NCBI GenBank assembly: GCA_034007585.1
Contig: JAVEQP010000001.1
Coordinates: 5,031 to 69,030 of the forward strand
From: Lentimicrobium sp.
GTDB lineage: Bacteria; Bacteroidota; Bacteroidia; Bacteroidales; Lentimicrobiaceae
Direction of reading: 5' to 3'
DNA length: 64,000 nucleotides
The notes beneath the pieces were generated by a model. The model worked only from the letters and a program-made list of their open reading frames with translations, searched no databases and was not told the origin of the DNA. Position 1 is the first letter of the stretch; each line of letters opens with the position of its first letter. Positions 22,612 to 38,192 of the stretch are shown piece after piece. The position numbers were made by a program, and so were the translations under genes.

Positions 22612-22616
22612 TCAGA

Positions 22617-23385: not shown

Positions 23386-23393
23386 TGAACAAA

Positions 23394-24482: not shown

Positions 24483-24639
24483 TAACCAGGTCTTTATGTG
24501 GCACGCATTGCCCAGCCCTAAAAAAGCAAAGTAAACACCGAAAAACGGGGTAAGCATGAAGTCCCTACTCCTTTTTACCGGCTAGGTTTCGACTATAGCC
24601 TACTGAGAAAGATAGGTGATTGAGAAGGGAGACGAGACA

Positions 24640-25308
24640 TTAATTTAGCCTGCCTGCCATCTCACCTGCAACCCAGAGTTTATTTAACTTCACTGTTCCT
24701 ATTATACTTCCGGGAGCTAGTGTGGCTTCAGGATCACCTTTAATTCCCTCCCTGATTTGACCGGATTTGTCTATATACCCAATACTTCTGCCTTTTGACG
24801 AAACCGACCAATCCGAATTAATCTGAAATATTTCAGTATTTACCGGATAATCAAACCCAAGCACAGAAACCGTTTTCTCCGCCCTCACGCTACCGGAGAA
24901 AGGACATCCCTTAGCACTTCCCATCCCACCTGAAGAAGAAATTATTTCAGGAATCTCATCATTATATACGTAAATTAACCCTACCAGATTAAAAAACGCG
25001 TATTCTTTTACTGGAACCCACTCGGGTTTAGTTTGATGCAGCAAATACATAATTGGATCGCCCGGAACAGCTACAATCATGCATAGTATATTACCAATGC
25101 CACCTAAATTGAAAATTTTTAGCACTTGGGCAATAAGCACAAAAGCCAATAATATAAAGGGCATTAATATGGGCATTAAAAGTGGCATGTAAAAAGGTGA
25201 CCCAGCATCATTGGGGACAAAAAGGGAAAAAACCGCCCATACAATTCCTGCACAGAAACTACGAAGTGTGTTTATCCACAGGGTTTTTTTAAGGAGAATG
25301 TTTTTCAT
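24640..25308 (-). CDS. Hypothetical membrane protein (about 3 N-terminal TMs plus a soluble beta-rich C-terminal domain)
   Basis: 222 aa ORF with A-rich start; last intact gene of the array. Confidence 0.65.
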   Translation of the reverse strand: MKNILLKKTLWINTLRSFCAGIVWAVFSLFVPNDAGSPFYMPLLMPILMPFILLAFVLIAQVLKIFNLGGIGNILCMIVAVPGDPIMYLLHQTKPEWVPVKEYAFFNLVGLIYVYNDEIPEIISSSGGMGSAKGCPFSGSVRAEKTVSVLGFDYPVNTEIFQINSDWSVSSKGRSIGYIDKSGQIREGIKGDPEATLAPGSIIGTVKLNKLWVAGEMAGRLN

Positions 25309-25422
25309 AGGTTTAGTTTTTAATGATTTTACTTAGAAAATAATGACTTGGAGGATTAGGAGAATCCCCGCAATTAAGTGATTGTTTATAACAGCAAAAG
25401 AAATAACTTTTATTGATAAGCG

Positions 25423-25686
25423 TCAATTCAAAAGTATCTGAGGGCAAGTCTTCATAGAATAGATCTGTTCCTCTGACCATCTGAATAGTTTCTTATTGCC
25501 CACTTTGAAATCACTGTTTTCCATGTATATTTTCTGCTTATTCCCATAATTGTCAAGAACCTCGATAAATGGATATGCACAAGGATGATAAGACCAATCA
25601 ATCTTTAACAATTTCCCTGACAACTGATAATCACTGTCGCAACCTCTATTCTTCTTTTCCGAATCATTGGTTTGAACTGATTTTTT
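25423..25686 (-). pseudogene. Start-less 87-codon open frame, probable gene remnant
   Basis: Frame is open from 25686 to the stop at 25423 with coding-like composition (KKSVQTNDSEKKNRGCDSDYQLSGKLLKIDW...), but has no ATG near its 5' end. Confidence 0.35.
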
Positions 25687-25712
25687 TCAGCATTGTAAAT
25701 ACCTGCCTTTTA

Positions 25713-26330
25713 TCAACTTTTCATTCGCTTCACTTCGAGTTCTTTCAATATCTCTTTTTCACCTTTGGATAATAAAGGAAGATATTTTATGTTTACAAAA
25801 ACCTTATTTCCCTCTATAATGAATTCTGCATCAATTTCTCTTTTTGCAAAGTCCACACCGCTGGTTGCCAACCACATTATAGCTTTGCCTTTCAATCTTC
25901 TTTCGCTAATATTATCCAAGGCTATTGTTTTTAAAATCTCAGGACCATTCCCAAAGGTCAATTCACGAACCTTATCCTTGTCAGACTCGTAGAAAAAATT
26001 TAAAGGATAAACCCAATCTCCTCCAGGATAAAAATGTACTACGCAAAAGTAATCAAGGACACCATCAGAGGTGTAATTCCCTCCTGTCAATTCAATCTCC
26101 TGAACTTCTCCATAATTACTATATTTTTCATGATTTTCCTGTAAGAATGATTGCATCCGTTTATTAGCTTCATCTTTTGTTAAGCTGAATGGGGAATTTG
26201 CTGACTTGGAAGACAACGGTGAATCCCTGGATGACGCAGATTCCATCGTGTTATTATTTGCTCCACCGCAACTTATAATATGCACAACTGCAAATATAAA
26301 TACCCCAAAAATTATTGTGTTTTTTTTCAT
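25713..26330 (-). CDS. Hypothetical lipoprotein
   Basis: MKKNTIIFGVFIFAVVHIIS-C lipobox at ATG 26330. The track's extension to 26615 overlaps the upstream gene in another frame. Confidence 0.7.
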   Translation of the reverse strand: MKKNTIIFGVFIFAVVHIISCGGANNNTMESASSRDSPLSSKSANSPFSLTKDEANKRMQSFLQENHEKYSNYGEVQEIELTGGNYTSDGVLDYFCVVHFYPGGDWVYPLNFFYESDKDKVRELTFGNGPEILKTIALDNISERRLKGKAIMWLATSGVDFAKREIDAEFIIEGNKVFVNIKYLPLLSKGEKEILKELEVKRMKS

Positions 26331-26391
26331 GCTTACAATTTTCAAAAGAGATAGTGTTTGTTTGTAATTCGCATAATCATCTTTTAAAGCA

Positions 26392-28329
26392 TTAAAAAGA
26401 ACGAGAATGCCATCTACTTTCATCATAAAGCTTCCCCTTGCCATTCTGGAGCGTGCCGAAATACAATCGATTTGTTCTATTTTCATAATACTTGCATTCG
26501 CCATGTTTTTCGCCATTTTTCCACCCTCCCTCATAATAATTGCCATTAGGCCACTGATACTTGCCAAACCCATGACGCGAACCATTAACCCATTCGCCCT
26601 CATATTTATCCCCATCCACCCAGATCATTGTACCTTGTCCATTACGTGTATCATTTTTCCACTCGCCTGAATAAGTGCAATTCCAGCTTCGTTTATTTGT
26701 TTCTGTTACCCCTATGCCTATCCCTTCTTTTTTCCCATCTTTAATTTGGCCCACATATCTCAACTTACCTCTTACATCTGATTCGATATTATTATTATCA
26801 AATACAATAACATGCTTCCCATAAGGATAAAATGTAAAATAGTATTCATATGCGGTTAGCGTATTTAATTGTATGGTGGCTGCCCAAACCGCTTCTTCCC
26901 TATATTCTACTGCTTTATTGGTAAATTTTCCATCAGGATATTTCTCAAGATATCTCTCATAGCCTTCAATGGTATTATTTTCCTTTGCTTCCTGCCATAA
27001 AACATCTTCTTTTAATTTCTTAGCCTCCTTAGAGAATCTGTTTTCCGGATATTTTCTCAGATAAGTTGCATAAGATTCATAAGTGTTTTGTTGTGTTGCA
27101 CTCTTCCACGCTTTATTCTCTTTGTACCAATTGATTAAAAAGACTGAAACTACAATCACAACAACCACTGCAACGAGAGAGCTTACAATAGTAATTACTT
27201 TTCGTTTTTGTTGCTTTTTATTGGTTTCATGCAGGGCGGTAATTTCATTCAGTTTTTTCTTATAGTCAGCATTGACTGGATTTAGCTCTATTGCTTTCTT
27301 TAACGAGTGTTGTGAATCCGTTAGTAATCCCAATGATTCCTGAATGCCAGCTATCTTATAACAGATTTCCGCATAATAATTGTGAGTGACTCCTGTGGAA
27401 CATTTCATTGATTTTTTAATATACTTATTGATGGTATATTGAATTCTATCTGATGTAATTCCCTGCAAGCTTTCAAAATAAATGTTTATAATTTCAGTAA
27501 TTATTTTAGCAAGAATTACCTCATCAAGGGGTTGTTGAAAACGCTTAATTAAATCAAAATCAAGCAAAGAAAACCATTCATCAATAATGCCGATTGGATG
27601 TTGTGTTTTACATAAGCTATAAATCAAATATAAGAATCCCCGCTGGCTATGCACATTATTTAAAGAAATTTCATCACCTGATAAACAGGTTTCAAGTATT
27701 TCAACTGCCTCTTTGTGATTACCGGAAAGACATTGATCAACACCCGTATAAATGGAAACTATTCTGTCTCTGTTTCCTTCTTCATATTTTTCTTTTAATA
27801 TGATGGTTGCCTTTTCTATTTCATTGTTTTCAAGCATTCCAATAGCTTTATAGTACAATGCTTTTGTGTTTGCCGGTTGCAGTTTTAGAATAGTTTCATA
27901 ATATTCATCGGCTTTTGCCTTATTGCCAAGTTGTAACTCAATTTCTGCAAGGTCTTCAATAAGTAATATATCCGTAGCTCTTTTTTCGAGCAATTGCTCG
28001 CCAAGCTCCAGTGCTTCCCTGTACATATTTAGTTTCAGGTAGCTCCCGAATAGCAATTCCTTTGCAAAATCATCACTTTCGTTGATTGCAAGAATTTTCA
28101 AAAGAGTTGGTACGGCATTTTTAAACAATAGGTTGTTAAAAAGAAATTGGGCATATTCATGGAGTATTTCAATATTGAGTGGATCAACCTTAAGCCTATC
28201 CTCGTAAACAGTCTTTTTTGCCAATTCCCTGGGGCCAATATTATATTCCTGAATTAATGGAGCACCGCATTTTTTACAGAATTTTTTATCATCCTCATAA
28301 GAGGTATTGCACTCTTTACATATTCTCAT
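26392..28329 (-). CDS. Double zinc-ribbon + TPR + single TM + ESY..YL-repeat + MORN-repeat protein
   Basis: CKEC...CKKC at the N-terminus, TPR helices, TM VITIVSSLVAVVVVIVVSVFLI, three NT.ESY/EGY..YL.KYP repeats, and GDKYEGEWVNG..HG.G MORN repeats. Confidence 0.85.
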   Translation of the reverse strand: MRICKECNTSYEDDKKFCKKCGAPLIQEYNIGPRELAKKTVYEDRLKVDPLNIEILHEYAQFLFNNLLFKNAVPTLLKILAINESDDFAKELLFGSYLKLNMYREALELGEQLLEKRATDILLIEDLAEIELQLGNKAKADEYYETILKLQPANTKALYYKAIGMLENNEIEKATIILKEKYEEGNRDRIVSIYTGVDQCLSGNHKEAVEILETCLSGDEISLNNVHSQRGFLYLIYSLCKTQHPIGIIDEWFSLLDFDLIKRFQQPLDEVILAKIITEIINIYFESLQGITSDRIQYTINKYIKKSMKCSTGVTHNYYAEICYKIAGIQESLGLLTDSQHSLKKAIELNPVNADYKKKLNEITALHETNKKQQKRKVITIVSSLVAVVVVIVVSVFLINWYKENKAWKSATQQNTYESYATYLRKYPENRFSKEAKKLKEDVLWQEAKENNTIEGYERYLEKYPDGKFTNKAVEYREEAVWAATIQLNTLTAYEYYFTFYPYGKHVIVFDNNNIESDVRGKLRYVGQIKDGKKEGIGIGVTETNKRSWNCTYSGEWKNDTRNGQGTMIWVDGDKYEGEWVNGSRHGFGKYQWPNGNYYEGGWKNGEKHGECKYYENRTNRLYFGTLQNGKGKLYDESRWHSRSF

Positions 28330-28353
28330 ATCAATGCGAATTTCAAGGGTTAA

Positions 28354-28866
28354 TTATAATTTAGTACCACATTCATAACAATACCCACCTGATGCTGTTG
28401 AGGGGTATTGTTTACCACATTCCGAACAGTAAATTTTGGCATCTTTACTTCTTGATGATATTGTCTCATCCTTTAATGACAGGCCTGAGATAAGAATGGA
28501 TACTGAAGCTATCAAAACAAGATAAAATCCTATGCCATAATTTGTAAGATCACCAATGAAATTGCTTGAATAGCCTATAGCAACAAGCAATAATAAGACG
28601 CCCGGAATTATTCCTGGAATTATAGCTCCTGCCAGATGACCCTTCGTCATTACTTTTTGACGATCACCTGAAAGCGCTACAATTAATGATATCAGAAATG
28701 CAATTATAACTATGTACCCACTACCATCTCTCGTTTCCATAAGGGAAACTGAAAGGCCCCACACTTTGATAAAAGGCAAAAATGCAGCTATAATGCCAAC
28801 AATTGCAGATGCTATAATCGCAATTCTTTGTTTGACTATTCCTTGTTCTCCAATTTGATTATTCAT
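28354..28866 (-). CDS. 4-TM membrane protein with C-terminal double zinc ribbon
   Basis: Four hydrophobic segments, then YCSECG...YCYECGTKL. Confidence 0.78.
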   Translation of the reverse strand: MNNQIGEQGIVKQRIAIIASAIVGIIAAFLPFIKVWGLSVSLMETRDGSGYIVIIAFLISLIVALSGDRQKVMTKGHLAGAIIPGIIPGVLLLLVAIGYSSNFIGDLTNYGIGFYLVLIASVSILISGLSLKDETISSRSKDAKIYCSECGKQYPSTASGGYCYECGTKL

Positions 28867-29043
28867 TTTTTTCGCTTTAAATGTGTTTAAAAAGAATCAC
28901 CTTATTTCTCTTTAGTCCTTTTAGAGCCGTTGTTTTTTTTCGCTCTTTACTTTCATTATTGGGACAAACTATTCAGTCATTGCTTTTGTAAGGGTATTCA
29001 CAACTGAATTTCTTCAAATTATAAAAGCATTAGAAAAATAAAT

Positions 29044-29301
29044 TCAATTTCTTGCTTTCAGAATGAACCTCAAACCAATAACAGACAAAATTCCACCTAC
29101 AATCAAAGTGAGGATTGGGATTGTGTTGTCTTTTTTATAAGTAAATGGCATTTCTTCACCACCAATACTTCTTGAAAAGTCGTTCAACATATTCATCCCC
29201 TGCTCCAGCCGGTCGGGTTGCAACTTTTGATAAGCCACAAATAAAACAACCAATCCTATGGCAGTAATAATGATTCCCGTTATGAGTTTTTCTGTTTTCA
29301 T
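29044..29301 (-). CDS. Small 2-TM protein (DUF3185-like architecture)
   Basis: TM-loop-TM with a basic tail, 85 aa. Confidence 0.65.
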   Translation of the reverse strand: MKTEKLITGIIITAIGLVVLFVAYQKLQPDRLEQGMNMLNDFSRSIGGEEMPFTYKKDNTIPILTLIVGGILSVIGLRFILKARN

Positions 29302-29334
29302 GTGCGATTGAATTTAGTTAATAATTTCGGTAAA

Positions 29335-29907
29335 TCAGAGTTTGCCCCCACAATGATAGCACTTCTGATCGCCAGGCTCTAATTCAAGCTTCTTTCCACA
29401 ATTGGGGCAGAAAGATTTTTTATCAGCAGCTGGAAATTGTGACCTTCGATCTATAATGTACTTATTGTGAATTGAGCCAGCACCAAAACATAACATCCCT
29501 ACTATTCCATTAAACAAAAGGAAAATGAAGCCACCAATTATTCCTAAGCTGTTTAAGGAGTCAAATGGACCGTGTGCATTAGATAATATGTAAACAAAGC
29601 CAATAACTCCTATTACGGACATAATTAATCCGAAGACACTGGACGTTTCTTCTAACCATATGGTTTTTTCTGTAGGTTTATTGAGACTGACAGAAATCAG
29701 TTCAGCTATTGCTGAAAAACTCATCAGTACAATTCCAAGATAAAGCGACAAAATAATAATTTGTGTACTTCCATGGGAATCCGATATCAAATATATTGGC
29801 AAGAGAATTCCAACTGCTAAAAAAATGAAAGACAAAACTTGCAATATAGTGCTTATGAGATCATACCTTTTTGCGTAAAAAACATCAATGTTCAGTGCTT
29901 GTTTCAT
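29335..29907 (-). CDS. 4-TM membrane protein with C-terminal double zinc ribbon
   Basis: Two TM hairpins, then FCPNCG...KCYHCGGKL. Confidence 0.78.
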   Translation of the reverse strand: MKQALNIDVFYAKRYDLISTILQVLSFIFLAVGILLPIYLISDSHGSTQIIILSLYLGIVLMSFSAIAELISVSLNKPTEKTIWLEETSSVFGLIMSVIGVIGFVYILSNAHGPFDSLNSLGIIGGFIFLLFNGIVGMLCFGAGSIHNKYIIDRRSQFPAADKKSFCPNCGKKLELEPGDQKCYHCGGKL

Positions 29908-29940
29908 GGGATTTAGTTTGAAAAGATTATTAAATCATTT

Positions 29941-30131
29941 TTAGTTTTCAGTTACATCCTTTTGTTCTTCGGGTGATAAATCCTCGAAAGGCTTTTTAAG
30001 CAAAAAGTGGTAAACATTTGTATTTGATTCTGTAATAACAAAAGCTTGTGCAAATTCCCATTCGAGTTTACCCATATAGTTCAACGCATCAATCATAGAT
30101 TTGAAAACTATTGGTCTGCCAGTAGTGGGAT
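29941..30131 (-). pseudogene. 3' fragment of a small Bacteroidota exported protein
   Basis: PTTGRPIVFKSMIDALNYMGKLEWEFAQAFVIT...VYHFLLKK recalls the C-terminal half of a common Bacteroidota family. There is no signal peptide, and the track's N-terminus overlaps the upstream gene. Confidence 0.5.
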
Positions 30132-30167
30132 ATTTCCCCGGCAAAAGACGGTTGACTTTGCATATAT

Positions 30168-31652
30168 TTAGCGTATCATCCCACCTTTCATTTTGGCCTT
30201 CCATTCACCATAATCGTCTTTAAAAAGGATAAAATCTCCGATGTTATCAAAAGAGACTTCTTTACCTTGGTTGAAAGGATCATTTAATAAACAACTACCA
30301 ATAACGCGAATTTGCATTGGCCAATATCTTTCTCTATCGTTATATATGCCAATTTTCTCAACCTTGATGGAATTGAGTTTTGCATTACTTCCTCCCAATA
30401 AATTCCCAACCCAAGAAACAGGGATGCCTTCTTGTAAAGCAGCCGTCACCGCGCTAGCAATTTGTGCTTCATTTGGCATTGCACTTCTTGCTTTTTCTGC
30501 TAACAACAAAGCATCTTTATACCCCTTTACATAGTTGTTTGCAGATAAGAATTCTTTCTCTGCACCTTTAAATTCGTTTTGATTCATGAGAGCTTGGCCT
30601 TTTTCGTAATGAGCTTGTGCATCCTTCTCATCTGCCATGTTTTTATATTTAGTAGCTAACGCTTTCGCGTCTTTAAAATTGGAAACAAAGGAAACCGCTT
30701 TATTAAACTGTATTACAGCATCGCGAAAATTACCTACATTGACCAATGTTTTACCTTTATTATAACAAATTTGAGCATCATTTTCGTCTGCTATGGTTTT
30801 GTATTTAGTGGCTAATGCCTGTGCATCTTTAAAATTAGGCATAAAGGAAACCGCCTTATTAAACTGTATTGAAGCATCACGAAAGTTATCTGTATTAACA
30901 AAAGCTGTACCTTTATCATAACAAATTTGAGCATCCTTCTCATCAGCCATAGCTTCATATTTTGAAGCCAAAGTTTTCGCGTTTTTGTAATTGCCTGTAA
31001 TATCATCTGCACTCATAAACTTTTTTGATGCATCGCGATATTTCTCTTTACTCACCAAATTTTGTGCAATATTATAATAGGATTCGGAGGTTTTCTCTCT
31101 AGAGTCTTTGTAAGATTCACTATAGGTAAAAGCTGATGTATACTCTTTAATAGCTGTTTCATATTCCCCTTTTTTGAAAAAAACTTCAGCTTTCAAATAA
31201 TGTTCTTCAGCAGCATTATTAATAGCAATGGATAGCTTTGTGTCAATATCAATTATAGGCATTTCGAGAGGTCTCTTAATCTTCTTTCCGTCAATTTTTA
31301 TCTCTTCAATCGGATTGATTGATGCAATCTCTTTTCTTATTTTTTTTAATGTTTCATATTCTTCAATGGCCTTTCCCCAATCTAGTTTACGCTCATTTTC
31401 TTGAGCTGCTTTTAGATGGGAATCAACGACTATTTTAATAACAGGCCTAAATAATTCTATCGTTTTTTTATGATCGTTATCACTGCGGAGTTTAATAATG
31501 AGTAGATCAAGTGCCTGATCATACTGACCTTGTTCATAGGCTTTTTTAGCATCCCTATACTCATCAGCCCGAAGAGGTGTAATTACGGAACCGGCAAAAA
31601 TGCTAAGGCAAATTAGAGCCACTAAAACTAAAGAATAATTTGAGTTTTTCAT
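30168..31652 (-). CDS. Exported TPR-repeat protein with internal 52-aa tandem repeats
   Basis: Signal peptide, TPR helices, and three ADE.DAQ..Y.KG...F.DA..QF.KA units. Confidence 0.85.
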   Translation of the reverse strand: MKNSNYSLVLVALICLSIFAGSVITPLRADEYRDAKKAYEQGQYDQALDLLIIKLRSDNDHKKTIELFRPVIKIVVDSHLKAAQENERKLDWGKAIEEYETLKKIRKEIASINPIEEIKIDGKKIKRPLEMPIIDIDTKLSIAINNAAEEHYLKAEVFFKKGEYETAIKEYTSAFTYSESYKDSREKTSESYYNIAQNLVSKEKYRDASKKFMSADDITGNYKNAKTLASKYEAMADEKDAQICYDKGTAFVNTDNFRDASIQFNKAVSFMPNFKDAQALATKYKTIADENDAQICYNKGKTLVNVGNFRDAVIQFNKAVSFVSNFKDAKALATKYKNMADEKDAQAHYEKGQALMNQNEFKGAEKEFLSANNYVKGYKDALLLAEKARSAMPNEAQIASAVTAALQEGIPVSWVGNLLGGSNAKLNSIKVEKIGIYNDRERYWPMQIRVIGSCLLNDPFNQGKEVSFDNIGDFILFKDDYGEWKAKMKGGMIR

Positions 31653-31673
31653 ATTATGTAAATTTAATTTCCC

Positions 31674-31731
31674 CTACTCATGTGGCTTTTCGCATCCGCC
31701 CCGTTTTTTAAGTGGTTTCTGGTCTCCACTA
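31674..31731 (-). repeat. Leader module R1, copy A
   Basis: Minus strand TAGTGGAGACCAGAAACCACTTAAAAAACGGGGCGGATGCGAAAAGCCACATGAGTAG, 21 nt before ATG 31652; near-identical to 35505-35563. Confidence 0.9.
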
Positions 31732-31756
31732 TTTCAATTAAACTGTTTTTCTGCAA

Positions 31757-31806
31757 TGAATTTCTTCAAAACAAATTTGTCAGGGTGGCTCTCTTGTTTG
31801 TTTCAT
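31757..31806 (-). repeat. Leader module R2, copy A: micro-ORF MKQTREPP* (31806-31780) plus TGAA-GAAA-TTCA hairpin (31768-31757)
   Basis: 24 nt identical to 34765-34788 starting exactly at the ATG; shared TGTTTTGAAGAAATTCA.TGCA downstream. Confidence 0.85.
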
Positions 31807-31873
31807 TTTATTTTGTCATTTTTTAAACTTACACATAATGCATATTATGGCAGAGTTTAAGTTATCTCTAAAG

Positions 31874-33148
31874 TCATATATCATTTTTCATTGATATCTT
31901 TTCTTCAATTTTTCTGACACTACGCTGAATGGACAAAAAAACTAGGAGTGTTCCAATTAATACAATCAGAAAAATTCCACCTCCAATACCTGCTAAGGAT
32001 TTAGACCGAAGTCCTGTTTTGATAATTTTTTTACCTTCAAATTGCATTGCAGCCAATGCCTTCTCCTCTACATACTGGTTATCAATACGTTCAATTTGTT
32101 GAGCATATTCTTCATCAATTTGAGCTATTCGAATTTCACGATCCCGATTTTTATCCATAAATATATCATAATAACGTGATAAAGATTTGTTATGGTTCTC
32201 TCCTTTAATTTCCGTTAGCAGGGGGATAAATAAATCTGTGGCTTCCTGCAGCTTTGGTAAGTCTTCGTTGAATGCATAAAAATATTGCATGAATAGACTT
32301 ATAGTATTGATGCGTTCCTTAGAATCAAATTTATCAATTATCTCCGAAACATAATCAATAAATGGTGACCCATCATTTGGGTTTCTCTTACCGAAATCCA
32401 GAATCAAATCCATGTAGCGCAGATTATTCTCATTATCCATTCTGGGAATAACTTTTGATAGAGATGTGCAGACATTTATATTCTGGGATTTACTTTTTGA
32501 GCAATACTGTACCAACGAATTGATTGCCGGTTTTCGCTTATCTTCAGGCAATTGCTGCAAAACTGTAATATAAGCATCAAGCAGGTGTTTTTTATCAGTA
32601 TAAGTGGGTGCATCAGATGTCCTGTAAGCATAATCCAACTTTTCCTTAAGTCCATACTCTGTTACAATCCAATTCCGATACCTTTCGTCTTTATATACAT
32701 TCCAGTATCTTTCGCCATATGGGTAATACCAGTAACCCGCACCTGACCAGGAGTATTTAGAAGGAGGGATTAATTTCTCTAATGTTTGAATAGTCTCGTC
32801 ATAAGCTTTTTTACCCAGCGTGTCTTCTGATGCATATGTGCTAGTTTCAACAGCCTGGTTTATGGCTTTTTTCTGGTATGTTGTTTTTGAGGTATAAACC
32901 TTATTATTATCTGCATCATCAATAGTGATTTCACTCAGCAATACTGCCACCGGAGCGGGAAGTTGTTGTTTTTCCGGATAAGCTTGTTTTTCAACTTTCT
33001 TCGCTAAAGGAGGTATTACACTCCATATGAAGACCAGAACACTTATAACTATTGCCAATGATGAAAGAGCAATAAATAAATGCCAGAAGATTAATGAAAA
33101 ATTAAAAACATATTTGTCCTCAATTTTTGAAAAGTAGTTTGTTTTCAT
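31874..33148 (-). CDS. Hypothetical membrane protein (N- and C-terminal TMs flanking a large helical periplasmic domain)
   Basis: 424 aa, TM near residues 15-42 and TM near the C-terminus. Confidence 0.75.
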   Translation of the reverse strand: MKTNYFSKIEDKYVFNFSLIFWHLFIALSSLAIVISVLVFIWSVIPPLAKKVEKQAYPEKQQLPAPVAVLLSEITIDDADNNKVYTSKTTYQKKAINQAVETSTYASEDTLGKKAYDETIQTLEKLIPPSKYSWSGAGYWYYPYGERYWNVYKDERYRNWIVTEYGLKEKLDYAYRTSDAPTYTDKKHLLDAYITVLQQLPEDKRKPAINSLVQYCSKSKSQNINVCTSLSKVIPRMDNENNLRYMDLILDFGKRNPNDGSPFIDYVSEIIDKFDSKERINTISLFMQYFYAFNEDLPKLQEATDLFIPLLTEIKGENHNKSLSRYYDIFMDKNRDREIRIAQIDEEYAQQIERIDNQYVEEKALAAMQFEGKKIIKTGLRSKSLAGIGGGIFLIVLIGTLLVFLSIQRSVRKIEEKISMKNDI

Positions 33149-33195
33149 CTCGAAGTTATTTGATTTTTTTTATTTTGAATTTTAGTGTTTTTCAA

Positions 33196-34644
33196 TTAAG
33201 CGCTTCCAGCAGCCAGTAAAACAAGTCCAACAATTAGAATTAGTTTACCCATGCTGGTGATAACAGTATGCCCTCTTAGGTTTGCACCATACCTTTGGGA
33301 TACTTTTCTTTTCCCAAATTCATAACGACCTTCTAATTTTTTTGACCCATCTTTATAATATTCAACAAATGGACCATTCTTAACATGCCCGGTATATGCA
33401 TATTCTTTAATTATCTTTCCTCCTATGTAATTTTCCTCTTTAATTTTAATACTTTTATTGTTAAAGAAAAAATACTGCCCATCCGCAATTTTTCCATTAA
33501 AATAAACTAAGGAAAATTCAAGCTTCCCATTATCAAACCATCGTGAATGTTTCCCATCGATTTGTTCATTCAGATATGATTTTTCTTCTTTTTTTTGTCC
33601 ATTAGGAAACCACTCAGTCCACAACCCATCTCTTTTATCGTTGAGATACTGTCCTTTTTCTTTCGTATTATTACTATATGTTTCAAGAAATACACCATTT
33701 TTCTTGCCCATATTCCATTCCCCATAATAAGTTTTAAAATCATTTCTTAATATTCCTTTCCCATGAATGTCTCCATCTTTATAAACACCATCCCAAACTA
33801 TACCTCCCCTTTCATTATAGTCGATTCCTTTTCCATCTCTCAGCCCATTTCTGTAACTGCCTTCAAAACTTTTTTGTCCATTTAAGTACCATTCTATCCA
33901 TGAGCCATGCTTTTTCCCATTTAATAATTTTCCTTCTTCTTTTTTGTGATCCGAAAAGTAATCATAGTAACCAATATATAAGCTGTCATTATATATATAT
34001 ACCGAGCAGATGTCTCCTGATTTGGTTTCCAATCTAATGATTTCCTTCCCTCTGTCGTCATACTCCATAATTATATCATTCGTTATTTTGTCTTCACTAT
34101 AAAGTATCTCCTTTCTTAGCGTGCCGTTTTTATGCCACTCACTGTATTTCCCATTCTTTTGTCCATCTTTATAAGAGGCAAGCTTTTCTTTTTTTTCATT
34201 TTCATAATATAAAGTGAACAGTCCCTCTTTATTTTCATTCAAATAGTTTCCAGTTAATTTTTTATTCCCATTTGGATACCACTCTGAATATGATCCATTT
34301 AACTTTCCATTTAAATAATTGATCTCGTGGCTTTTATTTCCGTTTTCAAACCACTCTGTGTGCAAGCCATTCTTCACACCATGAATAAAATAACCCTCCT
34401 TTTTTTTTCTTTTACTTTCATAATATTCTACAAATAAGCCATTTTTGAGGCCTTTATAAAACTGCCCCACTTGTTCATAGGTGGTTTCATCCACTATCAA
34501 ACCCGTAAAAGGATAGCCATTCAGATACGCAATGTTTTCTTTAAATTGTAGTTCCCTTAGATACGCAGGATGCCGGTCGCCTTGCGCATAGCAAGACGAT
34601 AAAATAAGCATTGCAAATGATAGCATCAGAAAATTTTTCATCAT
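33196..34644 (-). CDS. Exported MORN-variant repeat (YwqK-like) protein
   Basis: Signal peptide and many G.(W/Y).EW(Y/F).NG.K..EG.Y..G...G repeats; ends in an atypical hydrophobic tail. Confidence 0.85.
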   Translation of the reverse strand: MMKNFLMLSFAMLILSSCYAQGDRHPAYLRELQFKENIAYLNGYPFTGLIVDETTYEQVGQFYKGLKNGLFVEYYESKRKKKEGYFIHGVKNGLHTEWFENGNKSHEINYLNGKLNGSYSEWYPNGNKKLTGNYLNENKEGLFTLYYENEKKEKLASYKDGQKNGKYSEWHKNGTLRKEILYSEDKITNDIIMEYDDRGKEIIRLETKSGDICSVYIYNDSLYIGYYDYFSDHKKEEGKLLNGKKHGSWIEWYLNGQKSFEGSYRNGLRDGKGIDYNERGGIVWDGVYKDGDIHGKGILRNDFKTYYGEWNMGKKNGVFLETYSNNTKEKGQYLNDKRDGLWTEWFPNGQKKEEKSYLNEQIDGKHSRWFDNGKLEFSLVYFNGKIADGQYFFFNNKSIKIKEENYIGGKIIKEYAYTGHVKNGPFVEYYKDGSKKLEGRYEFGKRKVSQRYGANLRGHTVITSMGKLILIVGLVLLAAGSA

Positions 34645-34737
34645 ACCGAATTTAGAATGTGTAACCTACGCCACTATGCGTTACTCTTTTTTGGGATTTA
34701 TGCTATATCCTATTGGTAAGTAATTGTTTCATTGCAT

Positions 34738-34788
34738 TGAATTTCTTCAAAACATCTTTTACTTGGGTGGCTCTCTTGTTTGTTTCAT
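34738..34788 (-). repeat. Leader module R2, copy B: micro-ORF MKQTREPPK* (34788-34759) plus TTGAA-GAAA-TTCAA hairpin
   Basis: Matches 31757-31806. Confidence 0.85.
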
Positions 34789-34863
34789 CTTTTTATTTTT
34801 AGTTTGTTTTTGTGCAGATTTTCGGGTAATAATCAGTACTTTTTTTTATTAATGTAACCTGGG

Positions 34864-35154
34864 TTAGTCCGGTATTTCCGATTTGGCGGAGAAACGCACT
34901 CCACCCCCAATTAGCAAGACAATTCCTCCTGTAATCATCGTATTGGTTGCTTTGCCCCGCTTTTGCTTACGGAGAGAATTGGTATGTTCGGTTTCCAACC
35001 AATTGCCCAAATCGTTCCGGCCTCCAAAAATGCCCATCTTTGATTCACTGGTGCTAAATTCTTTAGGTTGATTTGTGGCAAATTGGATTGCGCCATACAC
35101 AAAGATGATAGCTCCCAAAATGAGTATTACCAGTGCTAATCTCTTAAAATTCAT
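34864..35154 (-). CDS. Small 2-TM protein
   Basis: TM-loop-TM, 96 aa, same architecture as 29044-29301. Confidence 0.65.
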   Translation of the reverse strand: MNFKRLALVILILGAIIFVYGAIQFATNQPKEFSTSESKMGIFGGRNDLGNWLETEHTNSLRKQKRGKATNTMITGGIVLLIGGGVRFSAKSEIPD

Positions 35155-35176
35155 GATGATTCAGGTTTTGGGGAGT

Positions 35177-35482
35177 TTACATAAAGGCAGCCGCTCCGCC
35201 TAAAAGGGCACCGAAAACGGTTAGCAATAAAATTATGCCCAGGAGTGAAATTATTAATCCAGCAACAGCTAATCCTTTCGGCTCTTTAAATACTCCAACA
35301 AAAGATAATATTAGCCCTGTTAACCAAATTAACCACCCCAAAACGGGTACCCAGCCTAAAAATATTGCTATTAGTGCTAAGACAAAACCGGCAGTTCCCA
35401 CACCATTTGATTTCCGCTCTATTTGATTTATCACCACTGTCTGCCCAGATTGTGTTTGAGGATTTTGATAATCGTTTGCCAT
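35177..35482 (-). CDS. Small membrane protein (DUF4190-like)
   Basis: SNGVGTAGFVLALIAIFLGWVP...FVGVFKEPKGLAVAGLIIS pattern. Confidence 0.7.
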   Translation of the reverse strand: MANDYQNPQTQSGQTVVINQIERKSNGVGTAGFVLALIAIFLGWVPVLGWLIWLTGLILSFVGVFKEPKGLAVAGLIISLLGIILLLTVFGALLGGAAAFM

Positions 35483-35504
35483 CTTTTATTTGTATTTATT
35501 TTTT

Positions 35505-35563
35505 CTACTCATATGGCTTTTCGTATCCGCCCCGTTTTTTTAAGTGGTTTCTGGACTCCACTA
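35505..35563 (-). repeat. Leader module R1, copy B
   Basis: Minus strand TAGTGGAGTCCAGAAACCACTTAAAAAAACGGGGCGGATACGAAAAGCCATATGAGTAG, 22 nt before ATG 35482. Confidence 0.9.
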
Positions 35564-35669
35564 CATAGAATAGTGTATGGTTTAATCCACTCGTTTAGCT
35601 TTTCACTTCCACCCCGGTTTTCAGTCTGTTCAAGTCAGGTAAAACGCCCCACACTGAAAACTCACCCTG

Positions 35670-35737
35670 CAATATTACTTTTTATCTTACCGCAGCGCAA
35701 CACCATTTTTGGCCATTTTTTTTTACCCCTATATTTG
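35670..35737. promoter_or_regulatory. Back-to-back promoter pair
   Basis: Minus: TTG (35700-35698), N20, TAATATTG (35677-35670; one mismatch) facing the array. Plus: TTTG (35708-35711), N18, TATATTTG (35730-35737). Confidence 0.5.
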
Positions 35738-35837
35738 GGGATGGCTGAACCGAAATTGGGGATAGGAGCAGCTAAATTTCAGGGAATAGGGATACCCCTT
35801 AGCCATTAGCCAAAAGCAATGTCTAAAAAAAACTAAA

Positions 35838-35894
35838 ATGGAAAATACGAATTATAACGGCATATATCGGGAGATAGCGCCGGTTTATAGCTAA
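35838..35894 (+). CDS. Candidate small ORF or 5' gene stub MENTNYNGIYREIAPVYS*
   Basis: Strong A-rich initiation context (AAAAAAAACTAAA-ATG) downstream of the plus-strand promoter. Confidence 0.3.
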   Translation: MENTNYNGIYREIAPVYS

Positions 35895-35907
35895 AGGAAA
35901 TCTACAT

Positions 35908-36525
35908 TCACACAACTCCCTGCCTGATGGCGATAGCTACCAGTTCAGCCACATTTTTAGCACCGGTTTTAGCACGTGCTATCTTGCAATGCGATTCGAT
36001 GGTATGTACTGACAGCCGCATAAGCTCAGCAGTGACTTTGGTACTGTTCCCCTCAGCCAGATGTTTTATTACTTTAATTTCTTGGGGGCTTAGGTGACTT
36101 CCCGTGTAGCGGATGGTAATGCGATTGGGCTTATCATCGTTGTGAACCAGGTAATCAATATACCCCTGGTGGATGCGTTTAATGGCATTGCTGATATCGG
36201 TGATACCCGACTCTTTGCTGCGAAATCCCTCCGCACCGTTTTTTCGCAGTGAATCGATCAACGGTTTATCGTTGAGCGAGGTGAGAATAAGCACCTTTAC
36301 CTCGGGTTTATTTTTTTTGATGGCTATCAGGGTCTCCTCGCCGTTCATTTCAGGCATATCCACATCCAGCAGCATTACATCAATGGGTTCAACGGCCACT
36401 GCCTGCAGTGCCTCTTTACCGTTTTGGGCATGTCCCACCACTTCTATTTCGGGATCTGACTTCAGGTAAGCAATCAATCCTTCTTTAAAACTTTGATGAT
36501 CGTCGGTGATAAATACTTTTATCAT
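35908..36525 (-). CDS. NarL/LuxR-family response regulator
   Basis: REC (TDDH, LLDVDMPEMNG, ILTS, SK) plus LuxR HTH (LSPQEIKVIKHLAEG.S....AELM.LS..TI..H). Confidence 0.93.
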   Translation of the reverse strand: MIKVFITDDHQSFKEGLIAYLKSDPEIEVVGHAQNGKEALQAVAVEPIDVMLLDVDMPEMNGEETLIAIKKNKPEVKVLILTSLNDKPLIDSLRKNGAEGFRSKESGITDISNAIKRIHQGYIDYLVHNDDKPNRITIRYTGSHLSPQEIKVIKHLAEGNSTKVTAELMRLSVHTIESHCKIARAKTGAKNVAELVAIAIRQGVV

Positions 36526-37874
36526 AACTCTTCACTTTTGATGGTGGCAATAAGCGTGGTACCATAACCCGGCCGGCTGTCGATGATAAGTTCACCCTCC
36601 AGTTGGTTTTCGATACGCATTCGCATGTTGTGCATCCCCAGACCATGATGTGCGTCATTCACATCAAAACCTTTGCCATTGTCGCAAATGACCATACTCA
36701 CCTGTTGATCGTGCTGCACCAGTTGGATATCTACCTCCGTGGCTTCGGAGTGCTTCAAAATGTTATTCAGGGCTTCCTGAAACACCCGGTAGAGCATCAA
36801 TTGAGCTGCGGATGACAAATGGCCATTTAACCGGTGAAAATAAACATTAAAATGGGCACAACTGCGGGGAAGTATTTGATACAAACTACTTTCGATAGCA
36901 TTGGTGAGGCCAACTCGTTGTAAGACAAAAACAGAATGGTTGTGCGAAATATCGCGAACGTCTTTTATCAAATCTGTAACAGCGCCAATAGATTGAGATA
37001 AACCAGAATAGTCCTGAGCTTGCTGCTGGGCTTCCAGGTTCATTTTAACCAAAGCCAGTTGGCAACCAACACTGTCATGCAGTTCTTTGGAAATTCGCTT
37101 GCGTTCTTTTTCCTGGCCATCGAGCAACAGGTTAATATTCTTGCGTTTTTCCTCTCTCAACTCAGCCGTGCGCTGCTGAACTTCATCCTGAAGATGGTCG
37201 TTTAGGTAGTTGATATGCTGCTGAGCCAGAAAATCATTGCGGGTCATTTTTTCAAGATAGTAGGCTGCATACAGACTTAGTAAGCTACTTCCTACAATAA
37301 AGAACAGGCTATTGATAAAAGTTTGCGTAAGGTTGATGGGTGAATCAGAAGGAATGGGTTCAATACAAACCCAAAACACCAGAATATATGCTGCGATTAC
37401 GAATACATTTAACAGTGCAGAATGCACAAAACGTACACGCAGGTAAAAAGTAACGATTGCAGAAGTAAGAATAAGGCCGGGATAAAAAAAGCTAAAATCA
37501 TAACCATTTTGGTTAAGCAAACGCAATTTCCAGAGTATCCCTACCGCTGCTACCAACCCAAAAAACAACAGGAACCACTGCATGTGCCTGGCAAAAACTT
37601 TTGTAAACGAAACGCCCAGTATCATAGCAAAGATGCCGCTTACCAAAAGTCGATTGACTATAAGTTTTGGCTCCAATTCCGGGAAAACATTGATATCAAT
37701 AAAATAAAAAACCAGATAAATAAAGATAGAAATTAAGAGGCCAAAGCGAACCTGAACTTTGAAACGATCGAAATAGTCGATAATAAAACGTTTCTCATTA
37801 TACCCATCTCTAAAGCCGAAGAGGATATTCCACCAACTTACTTTTTCAGGGGATGAAATCATATTCTTTTTCAT
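36522..37874 (-). CDS. HisKA_3 (NarX/UhpB-type) sensor kinase with 6-TM input domain
   Basis: ERKRISKELHDSVGCQL H-box, QEALNNILKHS, DNGKGFD, GLGMHNM and PGYGT; 4-bp overlap with the regulator. Confidence 0.93.
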   Translation of the reverse strand: MKKNMISSPEKVSWWNILFGFRDGYNEKRFIIDYFDRFKVQVRFGLLISIFIYLVFYFIDINVFPELEPKLIVNRLLVSGIFAMILGVSFTKVFARHMQWFLLFFGLVAAVGILWKLRLLNQNGYDFSFFYPGLILTSAIVTFYLRVRFVHSALLNVFVIAAYILVFWVCIEPIPSDSPINLTQTFINSLFFIVGSSLLSLYAAYYLEKMTRNDFLAQQHINYLNDHLQDEVQQRTAELREEKRKNINLLLDGQEKERKRISKELHDSVGCQLALVKMNLEAQQQAQDYSGLSQSIGAVTDLIKDVRDISHNHSVFVLQRVGLTNAIESSLYQILPRSCAHFNVYFHRLNGHLSSAAQLMLYRVFQEALNNILKHSEATEVDIQLVQHDQQVSMVICDNGKGFDVNDAHHGLGMHNMRMRIENQLEGELIIDSRPGYGTTLIATIKSEEL

Positions 37875-38192
37875 TTTTGGGAATTATGAAAACCTGCAAG
37901 CAGGTAATATTTCATGCTTCGGAAACAAAAAATTAATAGCTTGTATGATTTTAAAAGACAAATATAAAACTTGCAAACAGGATTATCAATTTTAATGTTT
38001 ACGAATCTATCAATCTGTAAAGAATACTTTAGTAATAATTGCTCAATAAAGCTGTATTTCCTTTTACAATGAGATATATCTATTATATATATCCAAATCC
38101 CAATTTTTAAATCTAACGACAAATCAGTTCGTGAAGTAGATATTGTTAGTTTAATTTATCCTATCTTTACCCTAATAAATAAAAAGATAATT

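What the first reader, a model, noticed from the sequence alone, without database searches (positions are those of the whole stretch)
24640..37874. Candidate undescribed system: TCS-headed ~11-kb co-oriented envelope-protein array built from reusable leader modules
Seen: downstream of a 6TM kinase and NarL regulator, about 12 genes and fragments all lie on the minus strand. Nearly all encode membrane or exported proteins (2TM and 4TM proteins, zinc-ribbon membrane proteins, lipoprotein, TPR, MORN), with no enzymes. The three long spacers are mosaics of shared parts: 35483-35700 = promoter + hairpin + R1; 34645-34863 = R2 + other hairpin; 31653-31873 = R2 + R1. A partial R2 occurs at 29005. Truncated and chimeric genes suggest turnover, yet no recombinase is present. 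Inference: an inducible, shufflable cassette array for envelope defence, such as orphan immunity to interbacterial toxins or phage, in which the repeats serve as regulatory leaders and/or recombination points.
Basis: partly seen in the sequence, partly recalled or inferred. Interest (0 to 1): 0.7.

Follow-up and report, generated by a model that had tools for sequence, protein, structure and literature searches.

The report
Envelope-gene cluster with cassette-type RNA leaders
The repeated spacers are real, but they are copies of a leader found across Bacteroidota: the known DUF805 RNA plus an undescribed upstream partner that elsewhere heads recombinase-linked gene cassettes; here they sit, apparently fixed, before ordinary envelope-protein operons next to a two-component system that most likely controls only the first gene.

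Summary
Thirteen co-oriented ORFs for membrane or exported proteins follow a MASE8/HisKA_3 kinase and a NarL-type regulator, and the long spacers share two modules.

R1 is the Rfam family DUF805 RNA (RF03081; two copies at 81-82 bits, plus one degenerate copy). In 96 loci from other Bacteroidota it lies at a fixed distance before the start codon. The downstream genes fall in at least 44 Pfam families, and 83% encode proteins with a signal peptide, lipobox or TM segment. Metatranscriptomes show it is transcribed.

R2, together with the sequence just 5' of it in the TPR spacer, matches the head that elsewhere begins at a GTTATGGGC|AAG core. That core closes ~140-nt attC-like hairpins, or lies ~100 nt behind a Xer/IntI-like recombinase gene (rAID/integron-like arrays).

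In the window the core is mutated, there are no hairpins and no recombinase was found. Gene order is the same in all 8 displayed places (22 contigs carry the 424-aa protein).

The two-component system has one conserved target: a palindromic box and promoter before the first small membrane-protein gene. This arrangement is kept in four orthologous loci.

The array splits into separately conserved units (TCS+101 aa; MORN+424 aa). It lies in a low-GC stretch of ~17 kb that one metagenome's assembly graph appears to bypass.

Verdict: no new TCS-driven system. These are fixed cassette-type leaders on ordinary operons.

The parts
36522..37874 (-). Sensor histidine kinase, 450 aa: 5-6 TM MASE8 domain + HisKA_3 + HATPase_c
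   Evidence: Orthologues at 53-90% identity.
35908..36525 (-). NarL/LuxR-type response regulator, 205 aa (REC + GerE)
35726..35762 (-). Putative regulator-binding boxes: palindrome TCCCCAAATATAGGGG (35726-35741) and an upstream half-degenerate copy TCCCCAATTTCGGTT (35748-35762)
   Evidence: Conserved in four orthologous TCS loci with HK identity from 53% upward. Only one full copy in the window. Binding is inferred, not shown.
35670..35715 (-). Conserved block TGGCCAAAAATGG and a Bacteroidetes-type promoter: -33 GTTG (35698-35701), 20-nt spacer, -7 TAATATTG (35670-35677)
   Evidence: The TSS is predicted, not measured.
35580..35644 (-). Degenerate second DUF805-like element (different first hairpin, recognisable second half), in tandem with the full copy
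   Evidence: RF03081 at 20.4 bits, E = 0.68 in a 1.26-kb search..
35498..35566 (-). R1 copy 1 = DUF805 RNA (Rfam RF03081), ending 15 nt before the ATG of the 101-aa gene
   Evidence: 82.5 bits against a gathering score of 51.1.
35177..35482 (-). 101-aa 2-TM protein. Homologues in L073, L062, L117, L125 and L127 are each preceded by a DUF805 RNA or its core motif.
34864..35154 (-). 96-aa small membrane protein, 22 nt after the 101-aa gene
34738..34800 (-). R2 copy in the 96-MORN spacer: R2a GAAACAAACAAGAGAGCCACCC (34765-34786) and palindromic R2b GTTTTGAAGAAATTCA (34738-34753)
34694..34710 (-). Small hairpin GGAU-N9-AUCC followed by an A-run; it sits where the first hairpin of R1 would be. Possibly a diverged R1.
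   Evidence: Read from the sequence. No Rfam match at E <= 10.
33196..34644 (-). 482-aa MORN_2-repeat lipoprotein with a C-terminal TM segment
   Evidence: Paired with the 424-aa family in L121, L123, L124 and L125.
31874..33148 (-). 424-aa protein with a TM segment at each end. Member of a conserved uncharacterised family of ~420 aa.
   Evidence: 110 cluster representatives, down to 25% identity.
31814..31850 (-). Relic of a cassette boundary: 22-nt palindrome CCATAATATGCATTATG, then ATTATGTGTAAGTTTAAAAAATGACA, which matches GTTATGGGCAAGTTTAAAAACGACA of hairpin and recombinase-proximal sites elsewhere
   Evidence: An nhmmer profile of the upstream modules gives its only window hit here (31782-31838, E = 0.5).
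31757..31815 (-). R2 copy in the 424-TPR spacer (R2a 31783-31804, R2b 31757-31772). R2a shares an exact 14-mer, ACAAGAGAGCCACC, with the leader behind the L148 recombinase.
31667..31734 (-). R1 copy 2 = DUF805 RNA, ending 14 nt before the ATG of the TPR gene
   Evidence: 81.2 bits.
30168..31652 (-). 494-aa TPR protein with an N-terminal signal/anchor; contains three 156-nt tandem repeats
29941..30204 (-). 87-aa ORF without a hydrophobic segment; overlaps the end of the TPR gene by 37 nt
29335..29907 (-). 190-aa 4-TM protein with a C-terminal zinc ribbon
29044..29301 (-). 85-aa 2-TM protein
29005..29020 (-). Partial R2b (AATTTGAAGAAATTCA) in the 85-170 spacer
28354..28866 (-). 170-aa 4-TM protein with a C-terminal zinc ribbon
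26392..28329 (-). 645-aa protein: N-terminal zinc ribbon, TPR, one TM segment, MORN repeats
25713..26330 (-). ~205-aa lipoprotein (probable start MKKNTIIF...C)
25313..25623 (-). Two overlapping short ORFs; probably one frameshifted gene remnant
24640..25308 (-). 222-aa protein with 2 TM segments
23209..40300 (.). Low-GC (0.31-0.41) stretch holding Fic, the array, the TCS and an AraC/TPR regulator. One assembly-graph path in one metagenome bypasses it.
   Evidence: GC profile. In run X1 a 162-nt unitig joins 23208 to 40301 at depth 10.5, against 15.6 for the colinear path.

Best explanation
This is not one TCS-driven system. It is a low-GC chromosomal stretch in an uncultured Lentimicrobiaceae-like Bacteroidales bacterium, where several separate small operons for envelope proteins lie head to tail.

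(1) Two-component system. The MASE8/HisKA_3 kinase and NarL-type regulator form a conserved unit with only the first downstream gene. The unit comprises a palindromic box (TCCCCAAAT-NN-AGGGG), a Bacteroidetes -33/-7 promoter and a ~190-nt leader before a small 2-TM protein. I infer that the regulator binds the box and activates that promoter.

(2) R1. R1 is the known DUF805 RNA. It is a nearly invariant ~68-nt 5'-leader found across Bacteroidota. Its end lies 13-20 nt before the start codon of very diverse genes, most of which encode exported or membrane proteins. It is transcribed, and at a proteorhodopsin gene it sits at the very 5' end of the mRNA. I infer that it works after transcription, as the docking site of a conserved trans-acting factor that sets translation or stability of envelope-protein mRNAs. 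Its ligand or partner is unknown.

(3) R2. R2, with the sequence 5' of it in the TPR spacer, is the upstream half of the same leader family. Elsewhere this 'cassette head' begins at the core GTTATGGGC|AAG. That core closes ~140-nt attC-like hairpins, or lies ~100 nt behind a Xer/IntI-like tyrosine recombinase gene. In the window the core is mutated, the hairpin is reduced to a 22-nt palindrome and no recombinase was found. I read the leaders here as fixed relics that now serve only as expression signals.
For: R1:
- Rfam RF03081 at 82.5 and 81.2 bits, gathering score 51.1. A third copy scores 20.4 bits.
- A strict core pattern finds 108 stretches in GTDB genomes.
- The ATG lies 41-50 nt after CGGGGCG in 83 of 96 cases. 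80 of 96 products have a signal peptide, lipobox or TM segment, against 56% of control ORFs.
- The products fall in 44 Pfam families; only 3 of 80 are DUF805.
- The sequence is nearly invariant.
- At proteorhodopsin locus L085, contigs from three metatranscriptomes end 3-13 nt upstream of the first hairpin (4810, 4812, 4820; the hairpin starts at 4807). All four runs show zero depth beyond 4826.
- At L035, RNA contigs run through the upstream module at about 60% of the gene's depth.

Two-component system:
- The box, -33 and -7 elements are conserved in window, L127/L117, L128 and L129.
- There is a single full box in the window.
- Orthologous loci carry one small membrane-protein gene after the regulator.

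Modular origin of R2:
- Upstream modules recur in unrelated genomes.
- Alignment with heads that follow hairpins or recombinases; exact 14-mer shared with L148.
- 40 hairpins of 140-154 nt have covarying arms.
- 6 of 56 mid-size ORFs in hairpin loci are tyrosine recombinases.
- 57 of 71 recombinase loci have an ...AGTTRNNN core about 90-110 nt after the gene, against 7 of 71 controls.

Fixed state here:
- Same gene order in the 8 places shown; 22 contigs carry the 424-aa protein. Colinear DNA contigs in four runs.
- No recombinase homologue in the window.
- Separately conserved sub-units.
Against: - No transcription-start data exist for this organism. The RNA contigs that match the window are too sparse.
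- The three R2-bearing spacers have no recognisable Bacteroidetes promoter and no terminator. The array could therefore be read through from the TCS-controlled promoter.
- The R2 match to the upstream-module profile is weak on its own (nhmmer E = 0.5). The palindromic R2b core is unexplained; it also recurs in Lentimicrobium L035 and in L123.
- A recombinase could lie elsewhere in the genome.
- The DUF805 RNA shows no covariation, so its RNA-level role rests on transcription and position alone.
- The low GC and the possible island-less variant fit a mobile origin.
Confidence: 0.6

Rival explanations
1. The array is one long operon driven by the TCS-controlled promoter at ~35670-35701. R1, R2 and the small hairpins are then internal processing, stability or translation signals, so all about 13 genes respond to the kinase.
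For: - No Bacteroidetes-type promoter in the 96-MORN, 424-TPR and 85-170 spacers.
- No intrinsic terminators in the spacers.
- One contig of run X25, labelled RNA-Seq, spans the 96-aa gene, the spacer and the start of MORN.
- At L035 the upstream module is co-transcribed with the gene.
Against: - Orthologous TCS loci end after a single target gene.
- MORN+424 and DUF805-led genes occur elsewhere without this TCS.
- At proteorhodopsin the DUF805 RNA marks the 5' end of the mRNA. This suggests that leaders of this kind start their own transcripts.
- Run X25 is of uncertain nature and has a depth of only 2-5.
Confidence: 0.2
2. One reading: an active, shufflable cassette array of orphan immunity or defence genes (rAID/integron-like). 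A recombinase encoded elsewhere in the genome acts on the repeats.
For: - The leader family heads cassettes in recombinase-associated arrays elsewhere.
- GC is below 0.41 across the array.
- Fic and Xre/RES genes lie beside it.
- One metagenome has a path that bypasses the whole 17-kb stretch.
- The gene that follows the 424-aa family gene differs between relatives but keeps the leader.
Against: - Same order in all places shown and colinear contigs in four DNA runs.
- No hairpins, and the only recognisable core is mutated.
- No recombinase homologue in 64 kb.
- No PADLOC hit and no immunity family in Pfam or NCBIfam.
- Several genes are far larger than rAID genes, and two units are conserved as operons across species.
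- No array protein has a homologue in the recombinase or hairpin loci fetched.
Confidence: 0.1
3. R1 acts at the DNA level, as a promoter for an alternative (ECF-type) sigma factor (aGAAAC-N16-CGaa), not as an RNA.
For: - The motif is conserved in sequence and shows no covariation.
- It resembles ECF -35/-10 spacing (my own reading of the consensus).
- Many downstream genes look like envelope or stress genes.
Against: - Metatranscriptome contigs include the first hairpin, which would lie upstream of such a start site, at two unrelated loci.
- Sequence stays conserved for about 25 nt beyond the putative -10 element.
Confidence: 0.05

Closest known systems
DUF805 RNA motif (Rfam RF03081, clan CL00115 with DUF805b RF02914). 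From memory, it was reported in the Weinberg et al. 2017 survey, PMC5737381; its main text does not name it.
   Same: R1 matches the covariance model over its full length at 81-82 bits. It lies on the coding strand directly before a small membrane-protein gene.
   Different: Neither downstream gene here is a DUF805 protein. One leader carries a degenerate second copy in tandem. My sample shows the motif before at least 44 Pfam families, so the family name is misleading. Its function is unknown, and I found no paper on it.
rAID-1, recombinase-associated acquired interbacterial defence arrays of Bacteroidales (Ross et al., bioRxiv 10.1101/471110; PMC12247911)
   Same: Co-oriented array, GC below 41%, conserved intergenic motifs, Bacteroidales host. 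The window's leader family follows Xer-like recombinases in L011, L148, L150 and L154.
   Different: No recombinase; no recognised immunity genes; many genes exceed 300 codons; a TCS stands where the recombinase would be; the order is static. I could not test whether the published rAID intergenic motif is the DUF805 RNA.
Integrons and CALINs (attC arrays lacking an integrase)
   Same: In related loci, ~140-nt imperfect hairpins have ...AAC / GTT... boxes, inner covarying boxes and an asymmetric unpaired spacer. They separate single co-oriented ORFs. A GTTRNNN core lies behind an IntI-like recombinase gene.
   Different: The recombinase lacks the IntI-specific insertion (TIGR02249 matches in two stretches, below its cut-off). 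It is mostly co-oriented with the array. Each cassette carries a conserved expression leader. The window holds only a mutated relic of one site.
NarL-family envelope-stress two-component systems that control an adjacent small membrane-protein gene (LiaRS/VraSR type; from general knowledge)
   Same: HisKA_3 kinase with an intramembrane sensor, a GerE-type regulator, and a palindromic box upstream of the promoter of the neighbouring small membrane-protein gene.
   Different: The sensor domain is MASE8; there is no LiaF-like partner; the signal and the regulon are unknown.

Membership tests
DUF805 RNA (RF03081) | Score at or above the Rfam gathering threshold over the whole model | tested here: met
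   82.5 and 81.2 bits against 51.1, model positions 1-68 of 68.
DUF805 RNA (RF03081) | Position in the 5' leader, same strand, directly upstream of an ORF | tested here: met
   The motif ends 15 and 14 nt before the ATGs at 35482 and 31652. The same spacing holds in 83 of 96 other loci.
DUF805 RNA (RF03081) | Is transcribed as part of the mRNA | tested here: inconclusive
   Shown at L085 and L035. Reads matching the window are too sparse.
DUF805 RNA (RF03081) | Downstream gene encodes a DUF805 (PF05656) protein. This names the family; it is probably not a requirement. | tested here: not met
   No Pfam hit for the 101-aa protein; the other downstream gene is a TPR protein. Only 3 of 80 sampled downstream genes are DUF805.
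rAID-1 array | XerD-family tyrosine recombinase at the head of the array | tested here: not met
   No Phage_integrase domain in the ORFs scanned. tblastn with six array-type recombinases finds nothing in the window.
rAID-1 array | [quoted passage not shown] | tested here: met
   13 co-oriented ORFs with GC 0.32-0.43; all except the 96-aa ORF (0.43) are at or below 0.41.
rAID-1 array | Short genes (about 100-300 codons) homologous to immunity genes | tested here: not met
   Sizes range from 85 to 645 codons. No immunity or defence family was found. MORN_2 is the only loosely related repeat.
rAID-1 array | Conserved intergenic sequence motifs | tested here: inconclusive
   Repeated motifs are present (R1 twice plus one degenerate copy; R2 twice plus one partial copy). 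Their identity with the published rAID motif could not be checked.
Integron / CALIN | Integron integrase, or at least two attC sites | tested here: not met
   No integrase. No R''...R' hairpin in the window, only a 22-nt palindrome at 31834-31850. The official attC model was not available.
NarL-family two-component system | HisKA_3 + HATPase_c kinase next to a REC + GerE regulator | tested here: met

The most novel reading that the evidence does not exclude
The DUF805 RNA and its undescribed upstream partner form the standard 'head' of gene cassettes in a Bacteroidota-wide integron-like system. That system has three parts:
- a Xer/IntI-like recombinase (at least 589 relatives in GTDB species representatives);
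- an attI-like ...AGTTRNNN core about 100 nt behind the recombinase gene;
- ~140-nt attC-like hairpins ending in GTTATGGGC|AAG.

Unlike classical integron cassettes, each cassette would carry its own conserved expression leader. The same leaders scattered through chromosomes, as in this window, would mark former cassettes that became fixed. If the rAID intergenic motif is this leader, the orphan DUF805 RNA gains a biological context, and cassette capture and expression in this phylum become testable.
Probability: 0.3. Interest if true: 0.7.

Novelty: new variant of a known kind. Interest (0 to 1): 0.45.

Why it matters
For this locus, the result removes a candidate 'new system'. It replaces it with concrete, testable parts: a regulator box and promoter with one likely target, two copies of a known RNA motif, and a relic cassette boundary.

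More broadly, three observations came out of the follow-up:
- The orphan DUF805 RNA is a general leader of envelope-protein genes, not a DUF805-specific element.
- It has a recurrent upstream partner that is absent from Rfam.
- That partner starts at recombination-type sites tied to Xer/IntI-like recombinases.

If this holds, it links an uncharacterised RNA family to the integron-like rAID arrays of Bacteroidales. It would also extend that architecture to Flavobacteriia, Cytophagia, Chitinophagia and Ignavibacteria.

Tried and rejected
- GTDB scan with the 424-aa protein found no relative. The species is not among the representatives, so I used contig look-ups instead.
- The sigma-70 promoter and terminator scan was uninformative for Bacteroidota.
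- ECF-promoter reading of R1: set aside because RNA contigs include the first hairpin.
- RNA runs matching the window have depth 5 or less, so there is no 5'-end information.
- Apparent joint 37736/29861, seen in runs X3 and X25: rejected. The foreign contig matches only 18 and 22 nt.
- Joint 30129->35636 in run X5: left unverified. Depth is additive on one side only.
- PADLOC gave no hit. NCBIfam gave only repeat-level hits.
- The TPR protein is not a homologue of the DUF805-led TPR-like lipoproteins of L051 and L091; only repeat similarity was found.
- The nhmmer profile of the upstream modules gave only E = 0.5 in the window. I accept the hit only together with its position and the alignments.
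- Profile-based locus search with five recombinases failed for lack of a conserved stretch; I repeated it with three.
- My first regex count of DUF805 motifs behind the 80 best recombinase relatives was zero. DUF805 leaders are therefore not universal in these arrays. The conserved feature there is the AGTTR core.
- Literature searches for the DUF805 motif returned nothing relevant, and the supplement of PMC5737381 is not held.

Full report
**Observation.** On the minus strand a 450-aa kinase (36522-37874; HisKA_3 and HATPase_c, with MASE8 on record for the same protein) overlaps a 205-aa REC+GerE regulator (35908-36525). ORFs of 101, 96, 482 (MORN_2), 424, 494 (TPR), 87, 190, 85, 170, 645, ~205 and 222 aa follow. 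A simple hydropathy scan finds signal/anchor or TM segments in all except the 87-aa ORF and two short overlapping ORFs at 25313-25623. Those two look like one frameshifted remnant. Pfam finds no enzyme domain.

The shared spacer parts are far beyond chance. R1 (35498-35566 and 31667-31734) is 87-91% identical. The 22-mer GAAACAAACAAGAGAGCCACCC occurs twice, with none expected. GTTTTGAAGAAATTCA occurs twice exactly, plus a 14/16 copy at 29005.

**What R1 is.** Rfam identifies both R1 copies as DUF805 RNA (RF03081), at 82.5 and 81.2 bits against a gathering score of 51.1 and over the full model. A third, degenerate copy lies in tandem at 35580-35644 (20.4 bits, E = 0.68 in a 1.26-kb search). I found no paper on this motif's function.

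A strict core pattern finds 108 stretches in GTDB species genomes, across Bacteroidia, Flavobacteriia, Cytophagia, Chitinophagia, Saprospiria and Ignavibacteria. In 96 non-redundant cases:
- The start codon lies 41-50 nt after CGGGGCG in 83 cases.
- 80 products (83%) have a signal peptide, lipobox or TM segments, against 56% of control ORFs from the same loci.
- The products fall in 44 Pfam families. Examples are Bor lipoproteins, Fib_succ_major, TRL, rhodopsins, OMP beta-barrels, aquaporin and YiaAB. Only 3 of 80 are DUF805.

Runs of consecutive small genes, each with its own copy, are common: four in L073, three in L091. An alignment of 86 copies is nearly invariant and shows no covariation.

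Transcription is supported at two unrelated loci. At a freshwater proteorhodopsin gene, contigs from three metatranscriptomes end 3-13 nt upstream of the first hairpin, and all four runs show nothing beyond. At a Lentimicrobium porin gene, RNA contigs run through the motif and 230-320 nt further upstream at about 60% of the gene's depth. This argues against my own idea that the motif is an ECF-type promoter.

**What R2 is.** Upstream of DUF805 RNAs in many unrelated genomes there is a second recurrent module that Rfam does not hold. It starts ...GTTATGGGCAAGTT(T)AAAAAC GACA, contains an (A/G)CCACC box and often ...TGACA. The window's 424-TPR spacer has the same order:
- ATTATGTGTAAGTTTAAAAAATGACA
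- AATGAAACAAACAAGAGAGCCACCC
- TGACAAA

An nhmmer profile built without the window gives its only window hit there (E = 0.5). R2a shares an exact 14-mer with the leader of L148, and a six-way alignment shows the common head. The R2 copy before MORN is a local duplicate of R2a+R2b without that head. The palindromic R2b core (TGAA-GAAA-TTCA) remains unexplained. It recurs twice in the 2.5-kb Lentimicrobium contig L035, and once in L123 as TGAAGAAATT (last base of the core differs), each time in the same relative position.

**Where that head comes from.** In other genomes the GTTATGGGC box closes a 130-190-nt hairpin whose other end is GCCCATAAC. A strict pattern finds 35 further stretches. The 40 copies are 140-154 nt long. 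Their inner boxes covary (for example CGGTAT/ATACCG, GCACCTAAG/CTTAGCTGC, GGCGTTTGGC/GCCAAGCGCC). The unpaired spacer is asymmetric, and neither strand has an excess of G:U pairs (194 versus 164), as expected for a DNA-level palindrome. Several contigs carry two or three hairpins 670-1400 nt apart, each separated from the next by a single ORF.

Among the 56 ORFs of 270-480 aa in these loci, six are tyrosine recombinases (Phage_integrase + SAM_4). Five are close relatives of one another. Their best NCBIfam match is 'tyrosine recombinase/integron integrase' (NF040815, 196-226 bits). The integron-integrase model TIGR02249 matches in two stretches, below its cut-off. The sixth is a bona fide XerD. 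Two more relatives lie in L011 and L136.

At least 589 stretches in GTDB encode relatives. In 57 of 71 such loci an ATAxA...AGTTRNNN core lies about 90-110 nt after the gene, against 7 of 71 controls. 43 of 82 contigs end within 1.3 kb of the gene, as repeat-rich arrays would cause.

In L148, L150 and L154 the core GTTATGGGCAAG is followed by the upstream module, a DUF805 RNA and an ORF. L011 has a GATGGGCAAG variant in the same arrangement. [quoted passage not shown] I could not check whether the published motif is the same.

**Why the window is not such an array.**
- No recombinase homologue is present in 64 kb. The flanks hold housekeeping genes.
- There is no hairpin. Only a 22-nt palindrome precedes a mutated core (ATT instead of GTT).
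- 22 contigs from independent landfill, bioreactor, wastewater and manure metagenomes carry the 424-aa protein. All 8 places displayed show the same gene order. Four DNA runs give colinear contigs.
- The array splits into units that are conserved on their own. HK-RR-leader-101 aa occurs in the sister species (88% and 85% HK identity) with unrelated genes downstream. MORN(~480-520 aa)+42x-aa pairs occur in L121, L123, L124 and L125.
- In L125 the order is DUF805 motif-101 aa-MORN-421 aa-head+DUF805 motif-a different lipoprotein, and the same ~70-nt head plus motif stands before both genes. So the gene after the 42x family varies while the leader stays. This is the 'variable cargo next to constant modules' pattern, but at the scale of species.
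- No array protein matches PADLOC or a named immunity family.

**The two-component system.** The 425-nt RR-101 spacer aligns with its counterparts in L117/L127, L128 (HK 72%) and L129 (HK 53%). The following are conserved:
- one or two copies of TCCCCAAAT-NN-AGGGG
- TGGCCAAAAATGG
- a -33 GTTG
- 20 nt later, a -7 TA(A/G)TATTG

A Bacteroidetes-type promoter scan finds this promoter and one before the kinase, but none in the R2-bearing spacers. The full box occurs once in the window. In every orthologous locus with sequence available, the regulator is followed by a single small membrane-protein gene: the 101-aa protein, or YccF in L128 with a DUF805b-like half motif. I infer a class-I-type activation of that one promoter. 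This is not shown. Whether transcription reads on into MORN and beyond is open.

**Context.** GC is 0.31-0.41 from about 22 to 40 kb, against 0.44-0.48 outside. In run X1 a 162-nt unitig joins 23208 to 40301 at depth 10.5, beside the colinear path at 15.6. This suggests a co-occurring strain without the whole 17-kb stretch (Fic, array, TCS, AraC/TPR regulator). It is a single observation.

**Verdict.** The finding is real as an observation and partly right as an interpretation. The repeats are reusable leaders, and their family is tied to recombination sites elsewhere. Here, however, they are fixed parts of ordinary operons, the TCS most likely controls only its neighbour, and nothing indicates immunity or active shuffling. 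R1 is already known; R2 and the head are not in Rfam. The link between the DUF805 RNA, attC-like hairpins and Xer/IntI-like recombinases is the part worth following up.

Noticed in passing
L051:4038-4178, L060, L076, L045, L130-L163 (for example L132:511-652 and 1380-1522; L140:2145-2285, 2813-2955, 4273-4406): Imperfect hairpins of ~140 nt, bounded by CCAGCCCATAAC and GTTATGGGCAAG. They have covarying inner boxes and an asymmetric unpaired spacer, and they lie between co-oriented small ORFs in many Bacteroidota. The architecture is attC-like, and no Rfam family matches.
   Followed up: partly
L148:1818-2951, L150:164-1324, L156:684-1640, L137:6127-6966, L154:175-993, L011:1375-1851, L136:7249-7998; relatives L164-L243: A family of Xer/IntI-like tyrosine recombinases stands at the head of such arrays. 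A conserved ATAxA..AGTTRNNN core lies ~90-110 nt after the gene in 57 of 71 loci. Many contigs break just behind it.
   Followed up: partly
window 23208 / 40301: In DNA run X1 a 162-nt unitig (depth 10.5) joins these two points with 90 other letters between them. It bypasses the 17-kb low-GC stretch that holds Fic, the array, the TCS and the AraC/TPR regulator. Main-path depth is 15.6.
   Followed up: partly
window 30129 / 35636: Run X5 has a contig (depth 8.3, against ~21) that joins these points, which would delete TPR-424-MORN-96-101. Depth is additive on one side only and just 34 nt match on the short side. Not verified.
   Followed up: partly
L035:1-2561 (Lentimicrobium sp.): A 2.5-kb contig built from repeated intergenic modules. 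Two ~130-nt long-hairpin elements (about 160-290 and 1215-1335) stand after genes. Two near-identical ~110-nt modules end in CTGAAGAAATTCTTGCC (1-115 and ~2300-2410). There are two module+DUF805 leaders. One gene is a zinc-ribbon membrane protein like those of the window. The whole stretch is abundant in sludge metatranscriptomes.
   Followed up: partly
window, 10 sites (for example 4202, 18115, 41257, 57053): TGAAGAAATTC with at most 1 mismatch occurs 10 times in the window, against 2.8 expected (0 of 100 shuffles reach 10). Only the three copies in the array are exact, intergenic and on the gene strand. The copy at 57053 lies inside purD.
   Followed up: partly
window 22393-23075 and 23385-24482: An Xre-type antitoxin (152 aa) is followed by a RES-domain ORF of only 72 aa that matches the first half of the RES model, probably a truncated toxin. 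A Fic/SoFic-like gene lies at the edge of the low-GC stretch.
   Followed up: no
L120:1747-1779 and 5541-5573; L128:~12215-12260: The shorter relative DUF805b (RF02914) precedes two genes in L120. A similar half motif (GGAGGCGAAACCCGAAAAGCC) lies in the leader of yccF, behind the orthologous TCS in L128.
   Followed up: no
L125:1-125 and 3870-3995: The same ~70-nt upstream module, followed by a DUF805 core motif, stands before both the 101-aa gene and the lipoprotein gene after the 421-aa gene. These are direct repeats flanking the 101-MORN-421 block, as R1 does in the window.
   Followed up: partly
window 30598-31065: Three tandem 156-nt repeats (67-76% identical) inside the TPR gene, i.e. 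three 52-residue protein repeats.
   Followed up: no
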